The notes under the pieces were generated by a model, which was not told the origin of the DNA, searched no databases, and saw only the letters and a program-made list of their open reading frames with translations. Of a stretch of DNA of 64,000 bases, positions 2,184 to 38,565 are shown in pieces; position 1 is the first letter of the stretch, and every line of letters starts with the position of its first letter. The DNA comes from a virus (taxonomy: Duplodnaviria > Caudoviricetes), in IMG/VR virus record IMGVR_UViG_3300037466_003849, positions 8,122 to 72,121 of that record. One strand, 5' to 3'. A program made the position numbers and the translations under genes.

Positions 2184-2699
2184 TTGAGCACAGGATTTTT
2201 CGGCATCGCCGTCTACCACCCTAAGCACGAGGTCAACGTCGGCACGTTGTGGAGATCGGCGATGACTTACGACGCCGCCCTCCTGGCCACCGTCGGCCGC
2301 CGGTACCGATCGCAGGCATCCGACACCTGCAAGGCGCCGAAATCCATTCCCCTGCAACACTTCGCCGACATCGACGCCCTCATCGAGGGTCTGCCTCACA
2401 GCTGCCCGCTGATCGGCGTCGAGCTCGACTCCCGCAGTGAGGATCTCGAATACTTCGAGCATCCCGCCCGCGGCCTCTACCTCCTCGGCGCCGAAGACCA
2501 TGGCCTCCCGCCCGAGATTCTCGATCGCTGCCACCGGGTCATCAAGGTCGAATCCGCGGAGCCTTGGTCACTCAATCTCGCCGTCGCCGGTTCGATCGTC
2601 ATGCGCGACCGCTACATCAAGACCCAGACTCGCAGCCTGGTCACCGCCGCCGAGATGCGCGCCTACGCCGCCAGCCTGCCGACCACGATGGCCAGCTGA
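2184..2699 (+). CDS. SpoU/TrmH-family (SPOUT) RNA 2'-O-methyltransferase
   Basis: SPOUT motifs NVGTLWRS, LGAEDHGLP and SLNLAVAGSI. Confidence 0.85.
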   Translation: MSTGFFGIAVYHPKHEVNVGTLWRSAMTYDAALLATVGRRYRSQASDTCKAPKSIPLQHFADIDALIEGLPHSCPLIGVELDSRSEDLEYFEHPARGLYLLGAEDHGLPPEILDRCHRVIKVESAEPWSLNLAVAGSIVMRDRYIKTQTRSLVTAAEMRAYAASLPTTMAS

Positions 2700-27941: not shown

Positions 27942-28121
27942 TCAGTTCCCCTTCGTAGATGCCCGGCGCGCTGCCGCGGCGTGACGGCGCCAGTTGCCCA
28001 TGCACCGGTTGCTCCATTCGAGCTGCGAGGCCCATCCGCACGAGCAGACGGCCTGAAACTTGCGACCCTCGGCGGTCTCGACAACCGCGAGGTTGGAGGA
28101 GTGAGTCGTGGTCTCGCTCAT
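27942..28121 (-). CDS. Small zinc-finger-like protein
   Basis: CSCGW...WRRH. Confidence 0.6.
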   Translation of the reverse strand: MSETTTHSSNLAVVETAEGRKFQAVCSCGWASQLEWSNRCMGNWRRHAAAARRASTKGN

Positions 28122-28924
28122 CACTTCTCCTCGGTCGCCGCGAGCTCGCGATCGGCATCCCACTCGGCCTGTCGGCGCGTCTTCCAGATCTCCAGCGCCC
28201 GCGCCTGCGCCGCCTGCTTGGTCGGATGCTTGACGGCGTACTCGTCGTCGGTCACGCCGATGCCCTGGGACACCGTGAGCCCCCAGTACTGCTCGCTGCT
28301 GCCGGACTGCCTGCGCGAGATGGAGTAGGTCTCCTTGCGGCCGATGTAGTCGGCGCAGTGGGCGACGTAGTTGCCGTCGGACTTCTTGTAGAACCTCGGC
28401 GGCACCCATGCGTCGGCGACCTTGCTGATGTACAGGATCGAGCCGCTGGGGCTCGCCTCGACGGTGTAGCCCGCCTCCTTCAGCACCTTGGCGATCCGGG
28501 CGGCCTTCTTGGTGTTGACCTCCTCGATGTCGTCGGTGTCGACGCTCACCGAGATGCGGGTGGGGCCGGACTGGCTCACCCGCAGGCCGGGCCGGGCGCG
28601 GTCGTGGGAGGTCTTGTACCCCAGCCGCCGCATGGCCAGCGCCATCGTGTTCACCGCCAGCAGGCCGGGGCGCATCCACGGCTCGTGCTCGTCGGCCTTG
28701 CGCGGCCGTCCGGTCTGACGGTCGATCTTGGCGTAGGCCAGGATGTCGGCGCGCACGTAGATGTCGGTGCCCGAGGGGGAGGCGAGCTTCGGCGGGAAGT
28801 CTTCGGCCTTCTTCAGCACGTTCACCCGCTGACGCGAGCAGCCGAGGATCTCGGCGATATCGGCGACCCCGACGAGGTCGGCCGCGGGGGTGCCAGCGAG
28901 GGTGCTGGCGATCCACTCCGTCAT
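28121..28924 (-). CDS. AlpA/excisionase-like HTH fused to an unknown C-terminal domain
   Basis: VGVADIAEILGCSRQRVNVL...FPPK...YVRADILAY; first gene after the SigA promoter. Confidence 0.7.
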   Translation of the reverse strand: MTEWIASTLAGTPAADLVGVADIAEILGCSRQRVNVLKKAEDFPPKLASPSGTDIYVRADILAYAKIDRQTGRPRKADEHEPWMRPGLLAVNTMALAMRRLGYKTSHDRARPGLRVSQSGPTRISVSVDTDDIEEVNTKKAARIAKVLKEAGYTVEASPSGSILYISKVADAWVPPRFYKKSDGNYVAHCADYIGRKETYSISRRQSGSSEQYWGLTVSQGIGVTDDEYAVKHPTKQAAQARALEIWKTRRQAEWDADRELAATEEK

Positions 28925-29024
28925 GGATTGTCCTTTCGATGAACGGGGTAGAGTGTGGACCCGAGCCGGGGTGCATAGGTCGCATCCCGGCTCTTTCTGT
29001 GTCCGCGCTCCCTCCGTACGAACG

Positions 29025-29054
29025 ACTATACGGGAAAGAGTTGTCAGTCGTCAA
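29025..29054 (-). promoter_or_regulatory. Near-consensus SigA promoter for the leftward operon
   Basis: Minus strand: -35 TTGACG (29054-29049), 18-bp spacer, -10 TATAGT (29030-29025). Confidence 0.8.
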
Positions 29055-32306: not shown

Positions 32307-32428
32307 TGGACACCGAAGACACCGACGACCGGCCGGTGACCATCGCCGATCGTCTCGGCCCCGAGGTGGTGGCGTCGCTGATGGCGAAGGCCACGGCGAG
32401 CGCCGACGCCGCCGACGCGCAGCGATAG
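32306..32428 (+). CDS. Small hypothetical protein
   Basis: TAATG coupling. Confidence 0.45.
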   Translation: MDTEDTDDRPVTIADRLGPEVVASLMAKATASADAADAQR

Positions 32429-32869: not shown

Positions 32870-33205
32870 ATGGAGATCAACACCGACGACGGCAGCAAGG
32901 GGCTCTGGCTGATGACCGGCCCTTCCGGCGACGACACCCCGGCCAAGATCGGCCTGCTGTTCGATTGGTGCCGCTATGACAGTGACGCGCACGGCTGGGC
33001 CATCAGTGGCGGCACACCGCGCGGCGTCTTCGCCGTCGGCTGGATGCCGTGCCTCAGCGCGAGCTGCCCGCTACGTGGAATGCCGAAGCCGCTGCACCAT
33101 GCGATCGTCCTCGTCGGCAACCTCGTCGACAGCCTCCACGCCTGCGCCGACACCCTCGCCCTCGTGGCCCGCCGAGCCCGCGGCTTCTCGCGACTCTCGC
33201 GCTGA
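32870..33205 (+). CDS. Hypothetical protein
   Basis: AAAGGA RBS. Confidence 0.6.
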   Translation: MEINTDDGSKGLWLMTGPSGDDTPAKIGLLFDWCRYDSDAHGWAISGGTPRGVFAVGWMPCLSASCPLRGMPKPLHHAIVLVGNLVDSLHACADTLALVARRARGFSRLSR

Positions 33206-33576
33206 TGGCCACGCGGGTACGCCGTCCGTGCACGCAGTGCGGCCAGCCGGTCGTCTCCGGCGGCAAGTGCGCCCGGCACCTCGCGCTACACCACAAGCGC
33301 GTCGACCAGATCCGCGGTAACTCCTCGCAGCGCGGCTACGACAACGAGCACCGCACGCGCTTCCGTGCCGAGGTGCTGCGGCGGGACAACTACACCTGCC
33401 AGATCTGCTCCGGCTACGCCGACCGCGCCGACCATCACCCGCTCTCACGCAAGGAGCTGGTCGAGGCCAGGCTCGATCCCAACGATCCCGTCCACGGCCG
33501 GGCGCTGTGCGAGTACTGCCATAACCGGCACACCGCCAAGACGCAAGGCAAGGACAACTGGCGCAAGTCGCGATGA
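33205..33576 (+). CDS. HNH endonuclease (terminase-associated type)
   Basis: RRPC..C...C..H...SSQRGYD, VLRRDNYTCQIC, DHH, ALCEYCHNRHT. Confidence 0.9.
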   Translation: MATRVRRPCTQCGQPVVSGGKCARHLALHHKRVDQIRGNSSQRGYDNEHRTRFRAEVLRRDNYTCQICSGYADRADHHPLSRKELVEARLDPNDPVHGRALCEYCHNRHTAKTQGKDNWRKSR

Positions 33577-33942: not shown

Positions 33943-34070
33943 GTCGGCCGGATCGCTGGCGCGCCGTACAGGTCGGCTGTAGCGGTTGCTGTCGGCGCCG
34001 TCGGCCGGATCGCTGGCAGGCTGGCGCCGATCACGTCGGCCGGTCGCAAAGGGTCGGCCGGATCGCTGGC
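33943..34070 (+). repeat. Three exact 18-bp direct repeats GTCGGCCGGATCGCTGGC
   Basis: Copies at 33943, 34000 and 34053. Confidence 0.85.
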
Positions 34071-34349
34071 GCCGTCGCTGGCAGGCTCGAGCCGATGAGT
34101 CGGCCGGACATGCCGTGCGCCGTCGGCGCCAAGTCGGCGCCGTGCGGGACGCTCACCCAATCGGCCCGGTCGGCGCCGTTGCTGGCGCCCGGTCGGCCGG
34201 TCGAGTCTTAGGCACCGAGTGTGGCGCCCGTACGTGGTTGCGCGGTCCTAGATTCCGCGCTGTGAGGCTCGATATCCGAGCATGGTGCTTGCGATCGGTT
34301 CTCCTTCTGTCACGTGACGTAATGCTGTGTCGGCAAGATCGCCAGAAAC

Positions 34350-34391
34350 ACAACAAGCCCTACCGACATAGGCGCCGATAGGGCTTGTTGT
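34350..34391 (-). terminator. Hairpin ending the leftward island
   Basis: ACAACAAGCCCTA...TAGGGCTTGTTGT, 13-bp perfect stem. Confidence 0.65.
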
Positions 34392-34407
34392 CTCGCTGTG
34401 CGCACCC

Positions 34408-34446
34408 ACGGCGCCGCGTGCGGATAGGTCCCGCGCGCGGCGCCGT
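34408..34446 (-). repeat. Hairpin repeat, variant copy (same apex, different lower stem)
   Basis: ACGGCGCCGCG-T-GCGGATAGGTCCCGC-G-CGCGGCGCCGT. Confidence 0.75.
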
Positions 34447-34459
34447 CGGCGGCTCGGCA

Positions 34460-34711
34460 TCAGTACGTGTTGTCGTGCGTGAGGCCGCCGAGCCATTCGG
34501 GCACCCGCTTGCCCTGCCACATGATCAGCAATCGGCTCGGTATGCCAACCGTGCGGCTGTCGACGTATCGAACAATGCGCTTGTTGGTGCTGGCCTTGCG
34601 TCGGCGCAATTCCTTGCAAGCGTCAATGAAGGAAAGCGTTTGCGTTCCGCTGCTCCATTGTTCGGTCACGGGTGAGTATTCCTGCGCGTAGAAAACGTCA
34701 ATTTCTCGCAT
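34460..34711 (-). CDS. Island gene, hypothetical
   Basis: GAGAGGT RBS directly after repeat copy 1. Confidence 0.7.
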   Translation of the reverse strand: MREIDVFYAQEYSPVTEQWSSGTQTLSFIDACKELRRRKASTNKRIVRYVDSRTVGIPSRLLIMWQGKRVPEWLGGLTHDNTY

Positions 34712-34730
34712 GTAATTACCTCTCTCGGTT

Positions 34731-34795
34731 CGGCCCAGTTGCCGTGACACACCGCGCGGATAGGTCCCGCACGGTGTCTCGGAGACGACTAGGAC
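34731..34795 (-). repeat. 65-nt hairpin repeat, copy 1
   Basis: CGGCCCAGTTGCCGTGACACACCGCGCGGATAGGTCCCGCACGGTGTCTCGGAGACGACTAGGAC. Confidence 0.95.
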
Positions 34796-35388
34796 GGGTC
34801 CTGCAAACTCAGATTGCCGCGGTATGCAGCCTGCGACTCGCCCGCGCGGTAATCCGGGTTGTCATTGCCAGCGACGATGAATCCGATCATTCCGTTAGGC
34901 AGGAAGTTGTGCACTGTCCCGCGGACGTCTCCGCTCGCTGCGGAGTGCCAGACAACCCGATCACCTTGCTTGAACTCCGGGTAGCAACGCTCGCAATCGT
35001 CGTCGCTGCACTTCGGCGGTCGGTTGGCTGTCGGCGCGGCCCAGTAGCTCACGCTGTCGCCGTTGTTCCAGTTAACGCGATACGAATACTCTTCGCCCGC
35101 GAGGACGGCGCGCCGGACTCCATAGAGCATGTCTCGGAATCCGTCCGACCCCTCGCGCTGCATCAACTCGACCATGCCGGTATCCCCGGCGCCGTCCTTG
35201 AGGTCAGCCTCAGATTCCGCGGACGCGTCGCACGCTTCGGCCGACGCCTCGCCATCGCGGACGATCAACTCAGCAAGCGCGCGCGCTACCTCGATAGCGT
35301 CGGCCTCACTGTCGACATGCAGCGCGGTCGGCGCCATGTCCTCGGGCAGGCATCCGGGCGTATTCGACGAGACAACCCAAACGGTCAT
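34789..35388 (-). CDS. Island gene, hypothetical
   Basis: GAAGGGATCG RBS after repeat copy 2; the stop TAG lies inside copy 1. Confidence 0.75.
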   Translation of the reverse strand: MTVWVVSSNTPGCLPEDMAPTALHVDSEADAIEVARALAELIVRDGEASAEACDASAESEADLKDGAGDTGMVELMQREGSDGFRDMLYGVRRAVLAGEEYSYRVNWNNGDSVSYWAAPTANRPPKCSDDDCERCYPEFKQGDRVVWHSAASGDVRGTVHNFLPNGMIGFIVAGNDNPDYRAGESQAAYRGNLSLQDPS

Positions 35389-35408
35389 GATTCGATCCCT
35401 TCTCAATC

Positions 35409-35473
35409 CGGCCTAGTTGCCGTGACACACCGCGCGGATAGGTCCCGCACGGTGTCTCGGAGACGACTAGGAC
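35409..35473 (-). repeat. 65-nt hairpin repeat, copy 2
   Basis: Identical to copy 1 except CCTAG for CCCAG. Confidence 0.95.
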
Positions 35474-35697
35474 AGTGCGCCGTAGGACCAACTACCCAAC
35501 GGCGCCGATTCGCACGGCAGCGGCGCCACTGGCGCCCCGTACGCGTCGGTTGTGTCGTCGGCCGGATAGCCGTACTCGCACGGGTCGACATTGAACGGAA
35601 CGTTGTACTCCGGTACGTCGGCCGACGCGGACGGCGCCGACAAGGCCAGCGCAGCGGCTGCGATAGCGAGGATGGTTCGAATTGCGTTGCGGGACAT
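35467..35697 (-). CDS. Island gene, small secreted protein
   Basis: Signal peptide MSRNAIRTILAIAAAALALSAPSASA; two Cys; the stop lies inside copy 2. Confidence 0.75.
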   Translation of the reverse strand: MSRNAIRTILAIAAAALALSAPSASADVPEYNVPFNVDPCEYGYPADDTTDAYGAPVAPLPCESAPLGSWSYGALS

Positions 35698-35724
35698 AGT
35701 GATTACTCCTGTCGGTAGGTTCGG

Positions 35725-35994
35725 TTAGACCGCGAGATAGAAGCGGGTGCGCCGGTAGACATTCCGGTACTCGTCGGCGCGCCCGTAGTCGATGATCAGC
35801 TCGGAGAAGTGGTCGCCGAACATGGCCGTTCGCGCCGCGCGCGGGTGCTCGACGGCGAACTGTTCGATGGCGCTTTTCAGTGCCTCATTTGCCACGCTGG
35901 GCAAGTCGTGCGAGCTCAACTCGCGCCGCTGCATTTCCGACGCGTCGGCACTCACTGTGAAGTCCTGGTCTATGCGGACAACCTTGAAAGGCAT
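35725..35994 (-). CDS. Island gene, hypothetical
   Basis: GAAGGATCG RBS. Confidence 0.7.
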   Translation of the reverse strand: MPFKVVRIDQDFTVSADASEMQRRELSSHDLPSVANEALKSAIEQFAVEHPRAARTAMFGDHFSELIIDYGRADEYRNVYRRTRFYLAV

Positions 35995-36024
35995 TGCGAT
36001 CCTTCGCGTTTCGAGAATGGACGG

Positions 36025-36375
36025 TTAGACGCTGGCAGGCTCGACAATCGAGGCCCACCACGTGAACGCGTGCCGCGTACCGGCATCACGGTCTCCGCAG
36101 TGCTCGCACTGCGACCGCGAGAACGTACGCGTTTCGCAATCGCAGTCGGCGCCGTCGGCGCACGGTTCGCCCATGTGGGCGCATTCGTCGTCGGTGAGGT
36201 GGCCGTGTCCAAGCGTCACGGCGTCGGCGCCAGCGTTGCGCATGTTGTTTTCGATGTGCGCCAGCCAATCGGCCACCTCATCGGCCGACCAATCGGCCGG
36301 GACGTTGCCGTATTCGATGCGGAATAGGCACGGTTCGCAGCACCATCCACTACCGAGAGAGATTTGCGCGTTCAT
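36025..36375 (-). CDS. Island gene, Cys-rich protein
   Basis: WCCEPC...CDC...FSRSQCEHCG; GAAGGGATCG RBS after copy 3. Confidence 0.75.
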   Translation of the reverse strand: MNAQISLGSGWCCEPCLFRIEYGNVPADWSADEVADWLAHIENNMRNAGADAVTLGHGHLTDDECAHMGEPCADGADCDCETRTFSRSQCEHCGDRDAGTRHAFTWWASIVEPASV

Positions 36376-36393
36376 ATTCGATCCCTTCTGTGT

Positions 36394-36458
36394 CGGCCCA
36401 GTTGCCGTGACACACCGCGCGGATAGGTCCCGCACGGTGTCTCGGAGACGACTAGGAC
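36394..36458 (-). repeat. 65-nt hairpin repeat, copy 3
   Basis: Identical to copy 1. Confidence 0.95.
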
Positions 36459-36986
36459 TCAGCGGGGAGCGAGTCGCATGGTTCCGCCGTGCATGTGCAC
36501 AAGCGGAACATGCGGCATGGTCATGCCCTCATACGGTGTGTGCAGGATGAGGGATACGTTTCCGTCCTCATCGGTGTGAGGCTCGAGCGTCATAGTGAAG
36601 CAACCGCGCGGCTCACCGACGCTGATCTGTACTTCGATCCGGTTTTCGCCGATCGTCACGCCTGCCCAGTTGACATAGTCGGCGGCGGACTTGTCGCGCG
36701 GCTCCGCCAGCGTGTAGTTGGTTTTCTCGCGAATGTCATCCTCCGACACCCACGCGTCGTCTTCTAGCTCAAGGTCGCGCCGGATGTCGTCAAAGTCGAT
36801 TCCGTTGCACAACCGCGCGTCGTTTTCGTCGTGCGTCCAGCCATCAACAGTGTCGGAAATAGGCTGGCCGCAATGCTTGCAAACCTTCTCGTCGTCGCTG
36901 TTCGCGGTAACGGTCACGTCGATTGTGTCATCGTCGCCGAAGTGCTCGGAGTCGATTGCCTGGCCGTTAATTTCGATGCTGAACAC
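36459..36986 (-). CDS. Island gene, acidic protein with CKHC motif
   Basis: GTG at 36986 after GGGAG (alternative ATG at 37058); the stop abuts copy 3. Confidence 0.7.
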   Translation of the reverse strand: MFSIEINGQAIDSEHFGDDDTIDVTVTANSDDEKVCKHCGQPISDTVDGWTHDENDARLCNGIDFDDIRRDLELEDDAWVSEDDIREKTNYTLAEPRDKSAADYVNWAGVTIGENRIEVQISVGEPRGCFTMTLEPHTDEDGNVSLILHTPYEGMTMPHVPLVHMHGGTMRLAPR

Positions 36987-37046
36987 AGCAGTACTCCCGT
37001 GGGAATTGGCGAATTTCTCGGCGCGCCAGATAGGCGCGTTGCGTGA

Positions 37047-37101
37047 CCTAATGGCCATGACATACCGCGCGCAATGTCGCGGTATCTCGGGAGCCGTTAG
37101 G
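37047..37101 (-). repeat. Hairpin repeat, diverged copy with compensatory changes
   Basis: CCTAA..GA-C-ATACCG..CGGTAT-C-TC..TTAGG has the same stem architecture as copies 1-3. Confidence 0.7.
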
Positions 37102-37106
37102 GCAGG

Positions 37107-37835
37107 CTACGCGGACGCGTATTCGAAACGGATACGGAACGGCGCGCCGTCGAATTCGCGCGGCTGTCGGTCCTCGAAAGCGGAGACAAGATCAAGGTAA
37201 GCCTCGGCGTAGCGTTCGCCGAAAGTGTGTTCCCGCGCGGCATGTGCTTTGTTGAGTGCTGCCGCATTGTCCTCATCCCTCGCATTGAGCCACGCGCGGC
37301 GGTCGGTCGCAGTGCGCTTAGGCGCCGCTTTCACGATAGCGGGCATTACCTCCGAAGCCTCATCGGAAACCGCGTCGTAGTTGTCGCGGGCAGGCGCCTT
37401 GCCGCGCGCTACTTCCTTGGTCTGGCCGCTGGCAGTGACTTTCTCGATCACGTAGGTAGCGGTAAGGCCATCCAGGGCGCCAGCGAGCAAGTGGGGGTAC
37501 TCGGCCGAGTCGTCGAATGAGTCTGCCCAATCGGCAATCCGGGCGGTCACGTCTGCATCGTTCGCGAGAGTGGCGCGCCGGTAAAGGCTGCGCATTCCGG
37601 CTGTGAAGTCCGACCATGTCATCGCGCCATCGCAGTAGCGCCGATCGAGTGCATCCAGTTCGTTGCGGAGCTCAGACTTGCCTGCCCACTGCTGGCCGCA
37701 GTATGTGCAGTCGAGCGGCTGGCCCGCGAAAACGGGCTCAGCTGCCGCGTAGAAGTCGACACAGTTGTTGCAGCGCTGATCAATCGAGCCGTCATCTGCA
37801 ATGCGCTGCACACCGATCATCTTGCGGTCCGTCAT
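37107..37835 (-). CDS. Island gene, N-terminal Zn-ribbon protein
   Basis: GGAGG RBS; CNNC...CTYC. Confidence 0.75.
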   Translation of the reverse strand: MTDRKMIGVQRIADDGSIDQRCNNCVDFYAAAEPVFAGQPLDCTYCGQQWAGKSELRNELDALDRRYCDGAMTWSDFTAGMRSLYRRATLANDADVTARIADWADSFDDSAEYPHLLAGALDGLTATYVIEKVTASGQTKEVARGKAPARDNYDAVSDEASEVMPAIVKAAPKRTATDRRAWLNARDEDNAAALNKAHAAREHTFGERYAEAYLDLVSAFEDRQPREFDGAPFRIRFEYASA

Positions 37836-38199: not shown

Positions 38200-38565
38200 A
38201 TGATAGAGCCACCATTCGCGCTTTCGGAAGGCGCAGACGAACATTGGCGGCGGCACGTGGATCGCATCGTATCCGAGGGCCGCGCCAAGCTCATCAATAC
38301 CGACGCGCTGGCGATCTACTGCGACATGCTGGCCCAGTATCAGCAGGCTACGCACCTGATCCACATGGAGGGCATGACCCGCGACGGCGACCGCGGCGGC
38401 ATGACCAAGCACCCGGCCACGACCATCCTTACCTCGCTGCGCGCCGACCTGCGGCACTATGCCCGCATGATCCCGCTCTACGACTCCGATGCCGAAATCG
38501 GCGACAGCCTCGACGGTTTCATCGCCGACGCCGAGAAGTGGGCCAACGAGCCCACGGCAGGCTGA
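38200..38565 (+). CDS. terS: Terminase small subunit (P27-like)
   Basis: DALAIYCDMLAQY...GMTKHPATTIL; position before terL. Confidence 0.8.
   Translation: MIEPPFALSEGADEHWRRHVDRIVSEGRAKLINTDALAIYCDMLAQYQQATHLIHMEGMTRDGDRGGMTKHPATTILTSLRADLRHYARMIPLYDSDAEIGDSLDGFIADAEKWANEPTAG

What the first reader, a model, noticed from the sequence alone, without database searches (positions are those of the whole stretch)
34408..37835. Gene array punctuated by a conserved ~65-nt hairpin repeat with compensatory base changes
Seen: seven leftward ORFs sit between five copies of one element. Three copies (34731, 35409, 36394) are near-identical and lie at the gene junctions: two upstream stop codons fall inside the repeat, a third abuts it, and an RBS plus ATG follows within about 20 nt. 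On the sense strand the repeat folds into a long imperfect hairpin: CCTAGT/ACT(A/G)GG outer stem, CGT/ACG, GA/TC, a G-G mismatch, ACACCG/CGGTGT, then TGCGG/CCGCG closing a GACCTAT loop. The only difference among copies 1-3 swaps T-A for T-G, which keeps the pairing. The diverged copy at 37047-37101 has double compensatory changes (ACACCG/CGGTGT to ATACCG/CGGTAT; CCTAG/CTGGG to CCTAA/TTAGG) and keeps the G-G mismatch. The copy at 34408-34446 keeps the apex on a different, fully paired stem. So structure, not just sequence, appears conserved. Known analogies: RNase III hairpins between T7 early genes, and integron attC hairpins after cassette ORFs. Inference: this is either a modular early-gene cassette system shuffled by recombination at the hairpins, or an mRNA processing/protein-binding signal that releases each gene as its own transcript.
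Basis: partly seen in the sequence, partly recalled or inferred. Interest (0 to 1): 0.85.

Follow-up and report, generated by a model that had tools for sequence, protein, structure and literature searches.

The report
Hairpin junction repeats in phage array
A soil actinophage carries a block of small unknown genes separated by a conserved "stop codon, long RNA hairpin, ribosome site" junction; related phages reuse the junction between mostly different genes, much like repeats already noted but unexplained in cluster M and K mycobacteriophages.

Summary
Seven leftward ORFs (34460-37835) lie between the HNH and terS genes of a 72-kb uncultured actinophage. They are punctuated by three near-identical 58-nt hairpins, one diverged copy with compensatory changes, and one copy that shares only the apex.

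I found the same element in other uncultured phages: two TerL relatives (L006, L024; five copies each) and an unrelated phage type (L008/L015 group; two copies). That gives 16 copies in 4 lineages. In every lineage the array sits beside terS and is transcribed away from it.

- **Conserved and variable parts:** the basal stem is conserved (CCUAG-Y-CG ... GGC-R-R-CUAGG). The apical stem differs completely between subtypes but always pairs.
- **Junction layout:** the UAG in the stem is the upstream ORF's stop in 9-10 of 16 copies. The other ORFs end 4-12 nt before the hairpin. A Shine-Dalgarno sequence and start codon usually follow 22-27 nt after it.
- **Gene content:** the islands of the three relatives share almost nothing except the hairpins.

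Best reading: a modular intercistronic RNA hairpin that processes, stabilises or insulates the mRNA, and that also supplies homology for cassette exchange. No RNA data exist, so the mechanism is inferred.

The closest known elements are the cluster M stem-loop+CR3/CR4 repeats and the cluster K ESAS/SAS. I rate this a new variant of a known kind, of moderate interest.

The parts
37107..37835 (-). w1, first ORF of the array (242 aa, N-terminal Cys pairs)
   Evidence: ORF with SD (GGGAGG) before the ATG. Only weak PHROG hits of unknown function.
37048..37100 (-). c4, diverged hairpin copy
   Evidence: dG -32 kcal/mol, z -3.7. Compensatory changes relative to c1-c3. CM R1 gives 15 bits, E 0.08.
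36459..36986 (-). w2 (175 aa, GTG start)
   Evidence: ORF with GGGAG 8 nt before the GTG. Its TGA lies 3 nt before the CCUAG of c3.
36398..36455 (-). c3 hairpin
   Evidence: Repeat family D1. Folds at -36.8 kcal/mol. CM R1 E 1.9e-3.
36025..36375 (-). w3 (116 aa, Cys-rich)
   Evidence: phrog_3034. Homologues lie at the far right end, minus strand, of Gordonia phages Neville and Rabbitrun.
35725..35994 (-). w4 (89 aa)
   Evidence: phrog_23229. No hairpin before or after it; the gaps are short and carry SDs.
35467..35697 (-). w5 (76 aa, signal-peptide-like N-terminus)
   Evidence: Its stop is the TAG inside c2. A 26-aa match to an ORF in the L024 island that has different neighbours.
35413..35470 (-). 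c2 hairpin
   Evidence: -39.2 kcal/mol, z -4.0. CM R1 E 1.4e-4.
34789..35388 (-). w6 (199 aa), a single-gene unit between c2 and c1
   Evidence: Its stop is the TAG inside c1. No homologue other than itself among 5.8 billion proteins at near lengths.
34735..34792 (-). c1 hairpin
   Evidence: -38.2 kcal/mol, z -3.4. CM R1 E 2.9e-3.
34460..34711 (-). w7 (83 aa), last ORF
   Evidence: phrog_34673. 45% aa to gp170 of cluster M phage Aziz, which sits in that phage's hairpin-punctuated right-end array.
34408..34446 (-). c5, a hairpin with the c1-c3 apex on a different stem and no CUAG base
   Evidence: dG -47 kcal/mol, z -4.2. Shares a 15-nt apex with c1-c3. Not matched by CM R1.
34343..34398 (-). 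Terminator-like hairpin that ends the array
   Evidence: 18-bp perfect stem followed by a U-rich tail; dG -43.7 kcal/mol, z -7.4.
28963..28993 (-). Separate hairpin with the same 7-nt loop GACCUAU, in the 5' leader of another leftward operon
   Evidence: It lies downstream of TTGACG-18 nt-TATAGT (29025-29054) and about 35 nt before the ATG at 28924.

Best explanation
The element is a modular intercistronic junction. It consists of a stop codon set in the base of a 52-58-nt imperfect hairpin with 20-23 base pairs, then 10-15 nt, then a purine-rich Shine-Dalgarno sequence, then a start codon. It punctuates a polycistronic array of accessory ORFans. The array lies between HNH and terS (the cos / genome-end region) and is transcribed away from terS.

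Proposed mechanism, all inferred: the hairpin forms in the mRNA just behind the terminating ribosome and acts in cis. It would serve as a processing site or 3'-end protector, in the manner of the T7 early-region RNase III hairpins or of REP-type exonuclease barriers. It would also act as a structural insulator that keeps the next SD unpaired, so that each unit is expressed whatever ORF sits beside it.

Because the same 60-90-nt module flanks unrelated ORFs, it is also the homology at which units of one to several genes are swapped by ordinary homologous recombination. That would make the island hypervariable.

Shown here: the anatomy, family membership across 4 lineages, structure conservation, strand bias, and the mosaic gene content of the islands. 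Inferred: all RNA-level activity and the role in recombination.
For: - **Family:** 16 copies in 4 phage lineages share the basal stem, and the apices are unrelated in sequence but always paired.
- **Independent detection:** a CM built from L006 and L024 alone retrieves the window copies. Whole-record searches of the window genome and of the L006 and L008/L015 records find copies only in the islands; for L024 only the 16.7-kb locus was searched.
- **Covariation:** 95% of cells are paired; 12 double-change cells against 4.4+/-1.6 in shuffles (0/500); slid controls score at most 0.13 against 0.32.
- **Strand bias:** sense folds hold 46 G.U pairs against 20 for antisense, and the sense fold is more stable in 14 of 17.
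- **Placement:** the upstream ORF ends in the stem UAG or 4-12 nt before it in all 16 copies. A start with SD follows 22-27 nt after the hairpin in most. The SD stays unpaired in the folds.
- **Not terminators:** no U tract follows the hairpins, whereas each array ends in a canonical hairpin plus U-rich or UUCC tail.
- **Mosaic islands:** the window, L006 and L024 islands share only the hairpins at nucleotide level. The first hairpins of L006 and L024 are 91% identical yet follow unrelated ORFs. The two shared genes (DnaN-like, w5-like) have different neighbours.
- **Composition:** the islands are 4-8% lower in GC than the rest of each genome.
- **Cluster M parallel:** the cluster M array has the same layout, and gene insertions there come with a repeat copy (PMC7953290).
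Against: - There are no RNA data of any kind.
- RNase III does not need a conserved basal sequence, so the strict conservation of the base, including a C.A mismatch in 13 of the 17 folds counted, is not explained by this reading.
- c1-c3 are virtually identical, which fits DNA-level homogenisation or recent spread as well as it fits selection.
- Hairpins are missing from some junctions (w3/w4, w4/w5, and several in L006), so they are not needed for every gene.
- Compensatory change in a DNA palindrome can also arise by template switching, without any selection on RNA.
- The copies are related to one another, so the covariation counts are not independent events.
Confidence: 0.5

Rival explanations
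1. The element is purely a DNA-level recombination module. The conserved base is the crossover site for cassette exchange, either by homologous recombination as at T4 PeSLs or through an unknown structure-specific enzyme acting on an extruded or single-stranded hairpin. Any RNA fold is incidental.
For: Island contents are reassorted while the hairpins persist. The same hairpin subtype is attached to different ORFs. The element supplies the last codon(s) and the stop of many ORFs, as expected if joints lie just 5' of it. c1-c3 are near-identical. Cluster M insertions carry a repeat copy (PMC7953290).
Against: The window genome (CheckV 100% complete) has no tyrosine recombinase, serine recombinase or Y1 transposase. 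The apical stem would have no role, yet it is always maintained, with a sense-strand G.U bias. No junction-spanning variants appeared in two metagenome runs, although contigs cannot show rare forms.
Confidence: 0.2
2. The hairpins are partial transcription terminators or attenuators. They would be U-tail-less, 'I-shaped' hairpins of the kind proposed for mycobacteria, and would set a gradient of expression down the array.
For: Strong GC-rich hairpins sit directly after stop codons. PeSL stem-loops do work as terminators in T4-type phages (PMC2839356).
Against: No U tract follows any copy. The consensus scan finds no terminator at them. The arrays end with a separate canonical terminator. Five successive strong terminators would silence the distal genes. 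The conserved base and internal loops are not terminator features.
Confidence: 0.12
3. The element is a selfish miniature inverted-repeat element (MITE or REP-like) that targets CTAG/TAG sites and has spread within phage accessory regions.
For: It has terminal inverted repeats that begin and end in CTAG. Near-identical copies occur within one genome. Frequent coincidence with amber stops would follow from a CTAG target preference, such as I recall for IS630-family elements (from memory, not checked here).
Against: Conservation extends beyond CTAG on both sides (GUC before it, GCCR after it), with no visible target duplication. The pattern was not found in 401 sampled Actinomycetes genomes, nor outside the islands in the records searched. 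No transposase is present. Orientation is always sense, and the distance to the next start is fixed.
Confidence: 0.1
4. In this phage the hairpins are operators for a loop-specific RNA-binding protein (an antiterminator or translational regulator) that recognises the GACCUAU loop and co-regulates the leftward transcripts.
For: Five of the six GACCTAT sites in the 72-kb genome cap strong hairpins. All five are on the minus strand, on three unrelated stems, and one is in the leader of another leftward operon.
Against: The loops are not conserved in L006, L024 or L008 copies, so this cannot be the function of the family as a whole. No candidate protein was identified. c1-c3 and c5 may share their apex simply by descent.
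Confidence: 0.08

Closest known systems
Cluster M mycobacteriophage conserved repeats CR3/CR4 with upstream stem-loops (Pope et al. 2014, J Virol, not held here; summarised in PMC7953290)
   Same: Leftward array of small ORFs with unknown function. A hairpin starts at or just after the stop codon. Then comes a short conserved SD-containing motif, then ATG. I verified this in 13 gaps of phage Aziz. The motif core GAGAAGGGA(U/A) also follows c2 and c3. w7 is homologous to Aziz gp170, which lies inside that array. Gene insertions there come with a repeat copy (PMC7953290).
   Different: In cluster M the conserved part is the SD-proximal motif, and the hairpins have no common sequence. Here the hairpin base itself is conserved and the SD region is only loosely so. 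CM R1 finds nothing in Aziz. The host phages are a different lineage (TerL is closest to cluster E, 58% aa).
Cluster K mycobacteriophage SAS/ESAS (PMC3203893)
   Same: An imperfect 17-bp inverted repeat with a variable 4-13-bp spacer lies immediately upstream of a start-associated motif. Orientation is single. The consensus varies between genomes. The function is unknown.
   Different: The SAS 13-mer (recalled from memory) is absent from the window beyond chance level. ESAS are spread along the genome and tied to particular gene families. Here the elements are confined to one hypervariable island and tied to stop codons.
T4-type PeSL (promoter-early stem-loop) cassettes (PMC2839356, PMC4122927)
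   Same: Repeated stem-loop motifs flank ORFans in hyperplastic regions. Related phages differ by replacements bounded by the motifs.
   Different: A PeSL contains a strong sigma-70 promoter, and its stem-loop acts as a terminator. Here no promoter is found, there is no room for one in the 22-27-nt spacer, and there is no U tract.
T7 early-region RNase III processing hairpins (established knowledge: Dunn and Studier)
   Same: Imperfect hairpins of about 60 nt with internal loops lie between genes of a polycistronic operon near a genome end. After cleavage they remain as 3'-end stabilisers.
   Different: Cleavage has not been tested here. T7 sites show no conserved base with an embedded stop codon and are not linked to gene turnover.
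Bacterial REP elements near stop codons (established knowledge; from memory, Liang, Rudd and Deutscher 2015 reported REPs within about 15 nt of a stop affecting translation)
   Same: Repeated imperfect palindromes lie directly after stop codons inside operons. They have a conserved terminal tetranucleotide and act at the RNA level on mRNA stability and translation termination.
   Different: REPs are chromosomal, shorter (20-40 nt) and mobilised by RAYT transposases. Here no RAYT is present, and no copies were found in 401 sampled Actinomycetes genomes.

Membership tests
Cluster M stem-loop + CR3/CR4 junction repeats | A stem-loop lies directly upstream of a short conserved repeat that precedes the start codon | tested here: met
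   The layout is hairpin, then 10-15 nt, then SD, then start. The Aziz gaps show the same layout.
Cluster M stem-loop + CR3/CR4 junction repeats | The CR3/CR4 consensus sequence itself | tested here: inconclusive
   The published consensus was not available. The motif I read in Aziz (ACACGGAGAAGGGAA) is matched only over GAGAAGGGA(U) after c2 and c3, and not after c1 or c4.
Cluster M stem-loop + CR3/CR4 junction repeats | Located between leftward genes at the genome end | tested here: met
   The array lies between HNH and terS and is transcribed away from terS. The L008/L015 group has the same arrangement.
Cluster K SAS/ESAS | The 13-nt SAS consensus lies 3-8 nt before start codons | tested here: not met
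   One match with 2 mismatches at 32422, against 2.0 expected by chance.
T4 PeSL | A sigma-70-type early promoter within the motif | tested here: not met
   No promoter-like site at any copy. The simple consensus scan does not cover non-sigma-70 promoters.
T4 PeSL | The stem-loop acts as a terminator | not testable with these tools
   No U tract is present. Function needs an assay.
Integron attC | An integron-type tyrosine recombinase encoded nearby | tested here: not met
   No PF00589 match in the window genome. L006 has only an integrase at the prophage end.
Integron attC | R''/R' core sites (RYYYAAC / GTTRRRY) at the base of the hairpin | tested here: not met
   By eye, the base reads CCUAGYCG / GGCRRCUAGG and contains no GTTRRRY.
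RNase III processing site (T7 type) | About two helical turns of dsRNA with internal loops, in an intercistronic position | tested here: met
   20-23 bp with 1x1 and 2x2 or 3x2 internal loops.
RNase III processing site (T7 type) | Specific cleavage by RNase III | not testable with these tools
   No RNA run is listed.
REP / RAYT system | A RAYT (Y1 transposase) and many chromosomal copies | tested here: not met
   No PF01797 match in three phage records. The pattern is absent from 401 sampled Actinomycetes genomes.
Intrinsic terminator | A GC-rich hairpin followed by a U tract | tested here: not met
   The hairpin is present but no U tract follows any of c1-c4. Only the hairpin at 34343-34398 has one.
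Rfam families | A match to any curated RNA family | tested here: not met
   Only two sub-threshold microRNA-model hits.

The most novel reading that the evidence does not exclude
The stop-in-stem hairpin may be a dedicated device rather than a generic stabiliser. One possibility is a termination-reinitiation coupler: the fold brings the terminating ribosome to the next SD about 80 nt away. The other is a true cassette-capture site, a phage analogue of attC that works without its own integrase. In this particular phage, a loop-specific factor that reads GACCUAU would be superimposed and would link the array to a second leftward operon.
Probability: 0.12. Interest if true: 0.8.

Novelty: new variant of a known kind. 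Interest (0 to 1): 0.55.

Why it matters
Phage genome ends are packed with fast-turning-over ORFans, many of them probably host-takeover or anti-defence genes. How these genes are gained, lost and still expressed correctly is poorly understood.

This family gives a clean, searchable marker of such arrays: a conserved hairpin base with an embedded amber stop. It occurs in at least two unrelated actinophage backbones, always beside terS. It also ties together the unexplained cluster M (CR3/CR4) and cluster K (ESAS) repeats as instances of one design.

The design is compact enough to test directly with two-reporter constructs in M. smegmatis. If it works as an insulating or processing junction, it could also serve as a portable part for building operons in actinobacteria.

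Tried and rejected
- **blastn against 50,697 phage records:** no match for the island.
- **Rfam:** nothing above threshold.
- **Exact-apex pattern in IMG/VR:** two hits, L004 and L005, both inside coding sequence with no hairpin. I treat them as chance.
- **Basal-stem pattern hits L009 and L014:** L009 does not fold as the element. L014 lies at the end of a plus-strand ORF with ambiguous orientation. It was left out of the family count, although it is included in some totals.
- **TerL search of 185,579 species genomes:** only distant Kribbella and Gluconacetobacter prophages (32-46% aa). CM R1 had no significant match in the two Kribbella loci; the Gluconacetobacter locus (L018) was not searched.
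- **More distant metagenome TerL relatives (L025-L027, 61-62% aa):** no copies.
- **CM R1 on the right ends of cluster M Aziz, Gordonia phage Neville and cluster A Noelle:** no hits. Cluster E SirDuracell has a right-end leftward block but no regular hairpins.
- **The five L008/L015-group contigs:** 99.5-100% identical, so uninformative about indels.
- **Sequencing runs:** no RNA holder is listed. Two DNA runs hold the same phage. One may be the source of this DNA; the other gave identical pieces. Their contigs simply break at the repeats, and the few 'joints' have 21-nt sides and are not credible.
- **w6 homologue search:** it found only itself.
- **Translational coupling by alternative pairing of the SD with the 5' arm:** I looked by eye and found no consistent complementarity.

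Full report
**Setting.** The window is bases 8122-72121 of a 72,121-bp IMG/VR virus record rated 100% complete. A rhizosphere run holds it and may be its source, and a soil run from another study holds identical pieces. The large terminase is closest to cluster E mycobacteriophages, at 58% aa.

The finding lies in a 4.6-kb island. On one side is an HNH endonuclease gene (33049-33576, phrog_144). On the other is terS (38200-38565, Pfam Terminase_4). HNH and terS are the pair that usually flanks cos. The island is lower in GC than the rest of the genome (0.62 against 0.67) and is transcribed leftward, away from terS.

Seven leftward ORFs (w1-w7) are present. Three hairpin copies (c1-c3) are near-identical. 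c4 is diverged but keeps the fold through two double compensatory changes and keeps the G.G mismatch. c5 has the same 15-nt apex on a different stem and is followed by a canonical terminator-like hairpin. All copies fold far better than shuffled sequence (z -3.4 to -4.2).

w5 and w6 end in the TAG inside the stem, and w2 ends 3 nt before the hairpin. A Shine-Dalgarno sequence and ATG follow 22-24 nt after c1-c3. No hairpin separates w3, w4 and w5. The hairpins therefore bound units of one to three genes.

**The element is a family.**
- L006 is a provirus record with TerL 83% aa and syntenic structural genes at 70-78% nt. At the same HNH/terS position it has a 5.3-kb island with no nucleotide similarity to the window island, yet that island holds five hairpins of the same design.
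- L024 is a metagenome contig with TerL 82% aa, and it holds five more.
- A pattern taken from the shared base found a further lineage, the L007/L008/L011/L013/L015 contigs, which are one phage. It has an SPP1-type portal and a P22-type coat, so it is a different backbone. Two hairpins there flank a Pfam GP88-family gene, again in an array divergent from terS-terL.

That gives 16 copies in 4 lineages. A covariance model built only from the L006 and L024 copies retrieves c1-c3 (E 1e-4 to 3e-3), c4 (E 0.08) and the L008 copy. Whole-record searches of the window genome and of the L006 and L008/L015 records find copies nowhere except the islands.

**Anatomy.**
- **Base:** conserved in sequence. 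It reads (G)UCCUAG-Y-C-G-Y-Y-U on the 5' side and GGC-R-R-CUAGG-CC on the 3' side. This gives 5-6 pairs, usually a C.A mismatch, then three pairs.
- **Covarying base pair:** the fifth pair switches between U-A and C-G within and between genomes.
- **Apex:** above the base the sequence falls into about six unrelated subtypes. All form 8-12-bp stems with loops of 3-8 nt.
- **Covariation statistics (ten L006/L024 copies):** 95% of cells pair; 12 cells show a double change against 4.4+/-1.6 in shuffles (0 of 500); slid controls collapse.
- **Strand bias:** sense-strand folds hold 46 G.U pairs against 20 for the antisense folds, and the sense fold is more stable in 14 of 17. This points to one strand, most simply the mRNA.
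- **Stop codon:** the stem UAG is the stop of the upstream ORF in 9 solid cases and 1 doubtful case out of 16. Every other upstream ORF ends 4-12 nt before the hairpin (with my reading of w5).
- **No terminator or promoter features:** no copy has a U tract or a promoter-like site. Each array ends in a separate canonical terminator-like hairpin.

**Gene content turns over around the hairpins.** Between L006 and L024, the only nucleotide matches inside the islands are the hairpins plus one 53-nt stretch. The window island matches neither at nucleotide level.

At protein level the window and L006 islands share nothing. L006 and L024 share one DnaN-like gene (phrog_947; about 35-60% aa, far below TerL), and it sits at a different position in each array. 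The window's w5 has a short match to an L024 ORF that has other neighbours.

The first hairpins of L006 and L024 are 91% identical but follow unrelated first ORFs. w6, which is bounded by two identical hairpins, has no homologue at all.

Homologues of w3, w7 and the GP88-family gene in cultured phages all lie at the far right end on the minus strand. The array therefore corresponds to the leftward right-end block that is common in actinophages.

[quoted passage not shown] 2014, which I could not read).

I checked phage Aziz directly. Thirteen intergenic gaps of 75-108 nt each hold a hairpin that begins at or near the stop codon, then ACACGGAGAAGGGAA, then ATG. The core GAGAAGGGA(U) also follows c2 and c3, and w7 is 45% identical to Aziz gp170, which lies inside that array.

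Cluster K phages have ESAS, 17-bp inverted repeats upstream of start-associated sequences, with unknown function (PMC3203893). T4-type PeSLs are the best-studied case of repeats that mediate ORFan shuffling (PMC2839356), but they carry a promoter, which these elements lack.

The kind is therefore known. This family is new in three respects: the hairpin base is conserved and carries an embedded amber stop, the apex is hypervariable, and the family occurs in uncultured cluster-E-like phages and in an unrelated backbone.

**Mechanism.** I favour (0.5) an RNA-level junction module that processes, stabilises or insulates each unit of the polycistronic mRNA, and whose repetition also provides the homology for cassette exchange. 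The anatomy, strand bias and mosaicism are shown. Every functional step is inferred.

Rivals:
- A purely DNA-level recombination module (0.2). It is weakened by the absence of any recombinase or transposase in this complete genome and by the maintained apex.
- An attenuator (0.12), weakened by the lack of any U tract.
- A MITE or REP-like selfish element (0.1). The pattern is absent from 401 sampled Actinomycetes genomes and from outside the islands, and orientation and spacing are fixed.
- A loop-specific protein operator (0.08). In this phage the GACCUAU loop caps three unrelated stems, including one in the leader of another leftward operon behind a near-consensus promoter. But the loops are not conserved in the other lineages.

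**Verdict.** This is a real, structured, family-wide junction element in a hypervariable genome-end array. It is a new variant of a kind already noted in cluster M and K mycobacteriophages, and its function remains untested everywhere. Other first-stage notes on this genome flagged the same stretch, but no earlier result settles it.

Noticed in passing
window 28963-29054 (minus strand): A near-consensus promoter (TTGACG, 18 nt, TATAGT) is followed by a leader hairpin whose 7-nt loop GACCUAU is the same as in c1-c3 and c5. It lies about 35 nt before the ATG of the leftward gene 28121-28924.
   Followed up: partly
L006:7065-7083 and L006:5342-5360 (minus strand): A 19-nt repeat, GG(Y)AGACCUAUG(Y)CCAAAA, holds the same GACCUAU heptamer at two start codons of the L006 array. 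One opens a 12-codon uORF whose stop overlaps (ATGA) the start of the DnaN-like gene. These are the only two GACCTAT sites in the 21.8-kb locus.
   Followed up: partly
L006:5924-7039 (minus strand) and L024:684-1808 (minus strand): A DnaN-like sliding-clamp gene (phrog_947, E 5e-57) sits as a cassette inside the accessory arrays of two relatives. The two copies are far more diverged from each other than the core genes are.
   Followed up: partly
whole record G000 (72,121 bp): The genome is rated 100% complete but has no tyrosine or serine recombinase. Its relative L006 is a provirus with a tyrosine integrase, and the L015 phage has a 687-aa serine recombinase about 3 kb from its array.
   Followed up: partly
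window 33943-34096: Three same-strand copies of a 20-25-nt repeat (GTCGGCCGGATCGCTGGCGC), spaced 57 and 53 nt apart, lie in the non-coding stretch between HNH and the end of the array. This may be a packaging or terminus signal.
   Followed up: no
401 sampled Actinomycetes genomes: The element pattern had 0 matches, while the same pattern read backwards (the control) had about 30. This may reflect CTAG avoidance in these genomes (my inference).
   Followed up: no
L029 (Mycobacterium phage SirDuracell 69.2-74.6 kb): Cluster E, the closest cultured TerL relative, has the same right-end leftward block. Its genes are tightly packed and it has no regular junction hairpins.
   Followed up: partly
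window 2184-2699 (plus strand): A SpoU-family RNA methyltransferase gene (Pfam PF00588, E 7e-18).
   Followed up: no
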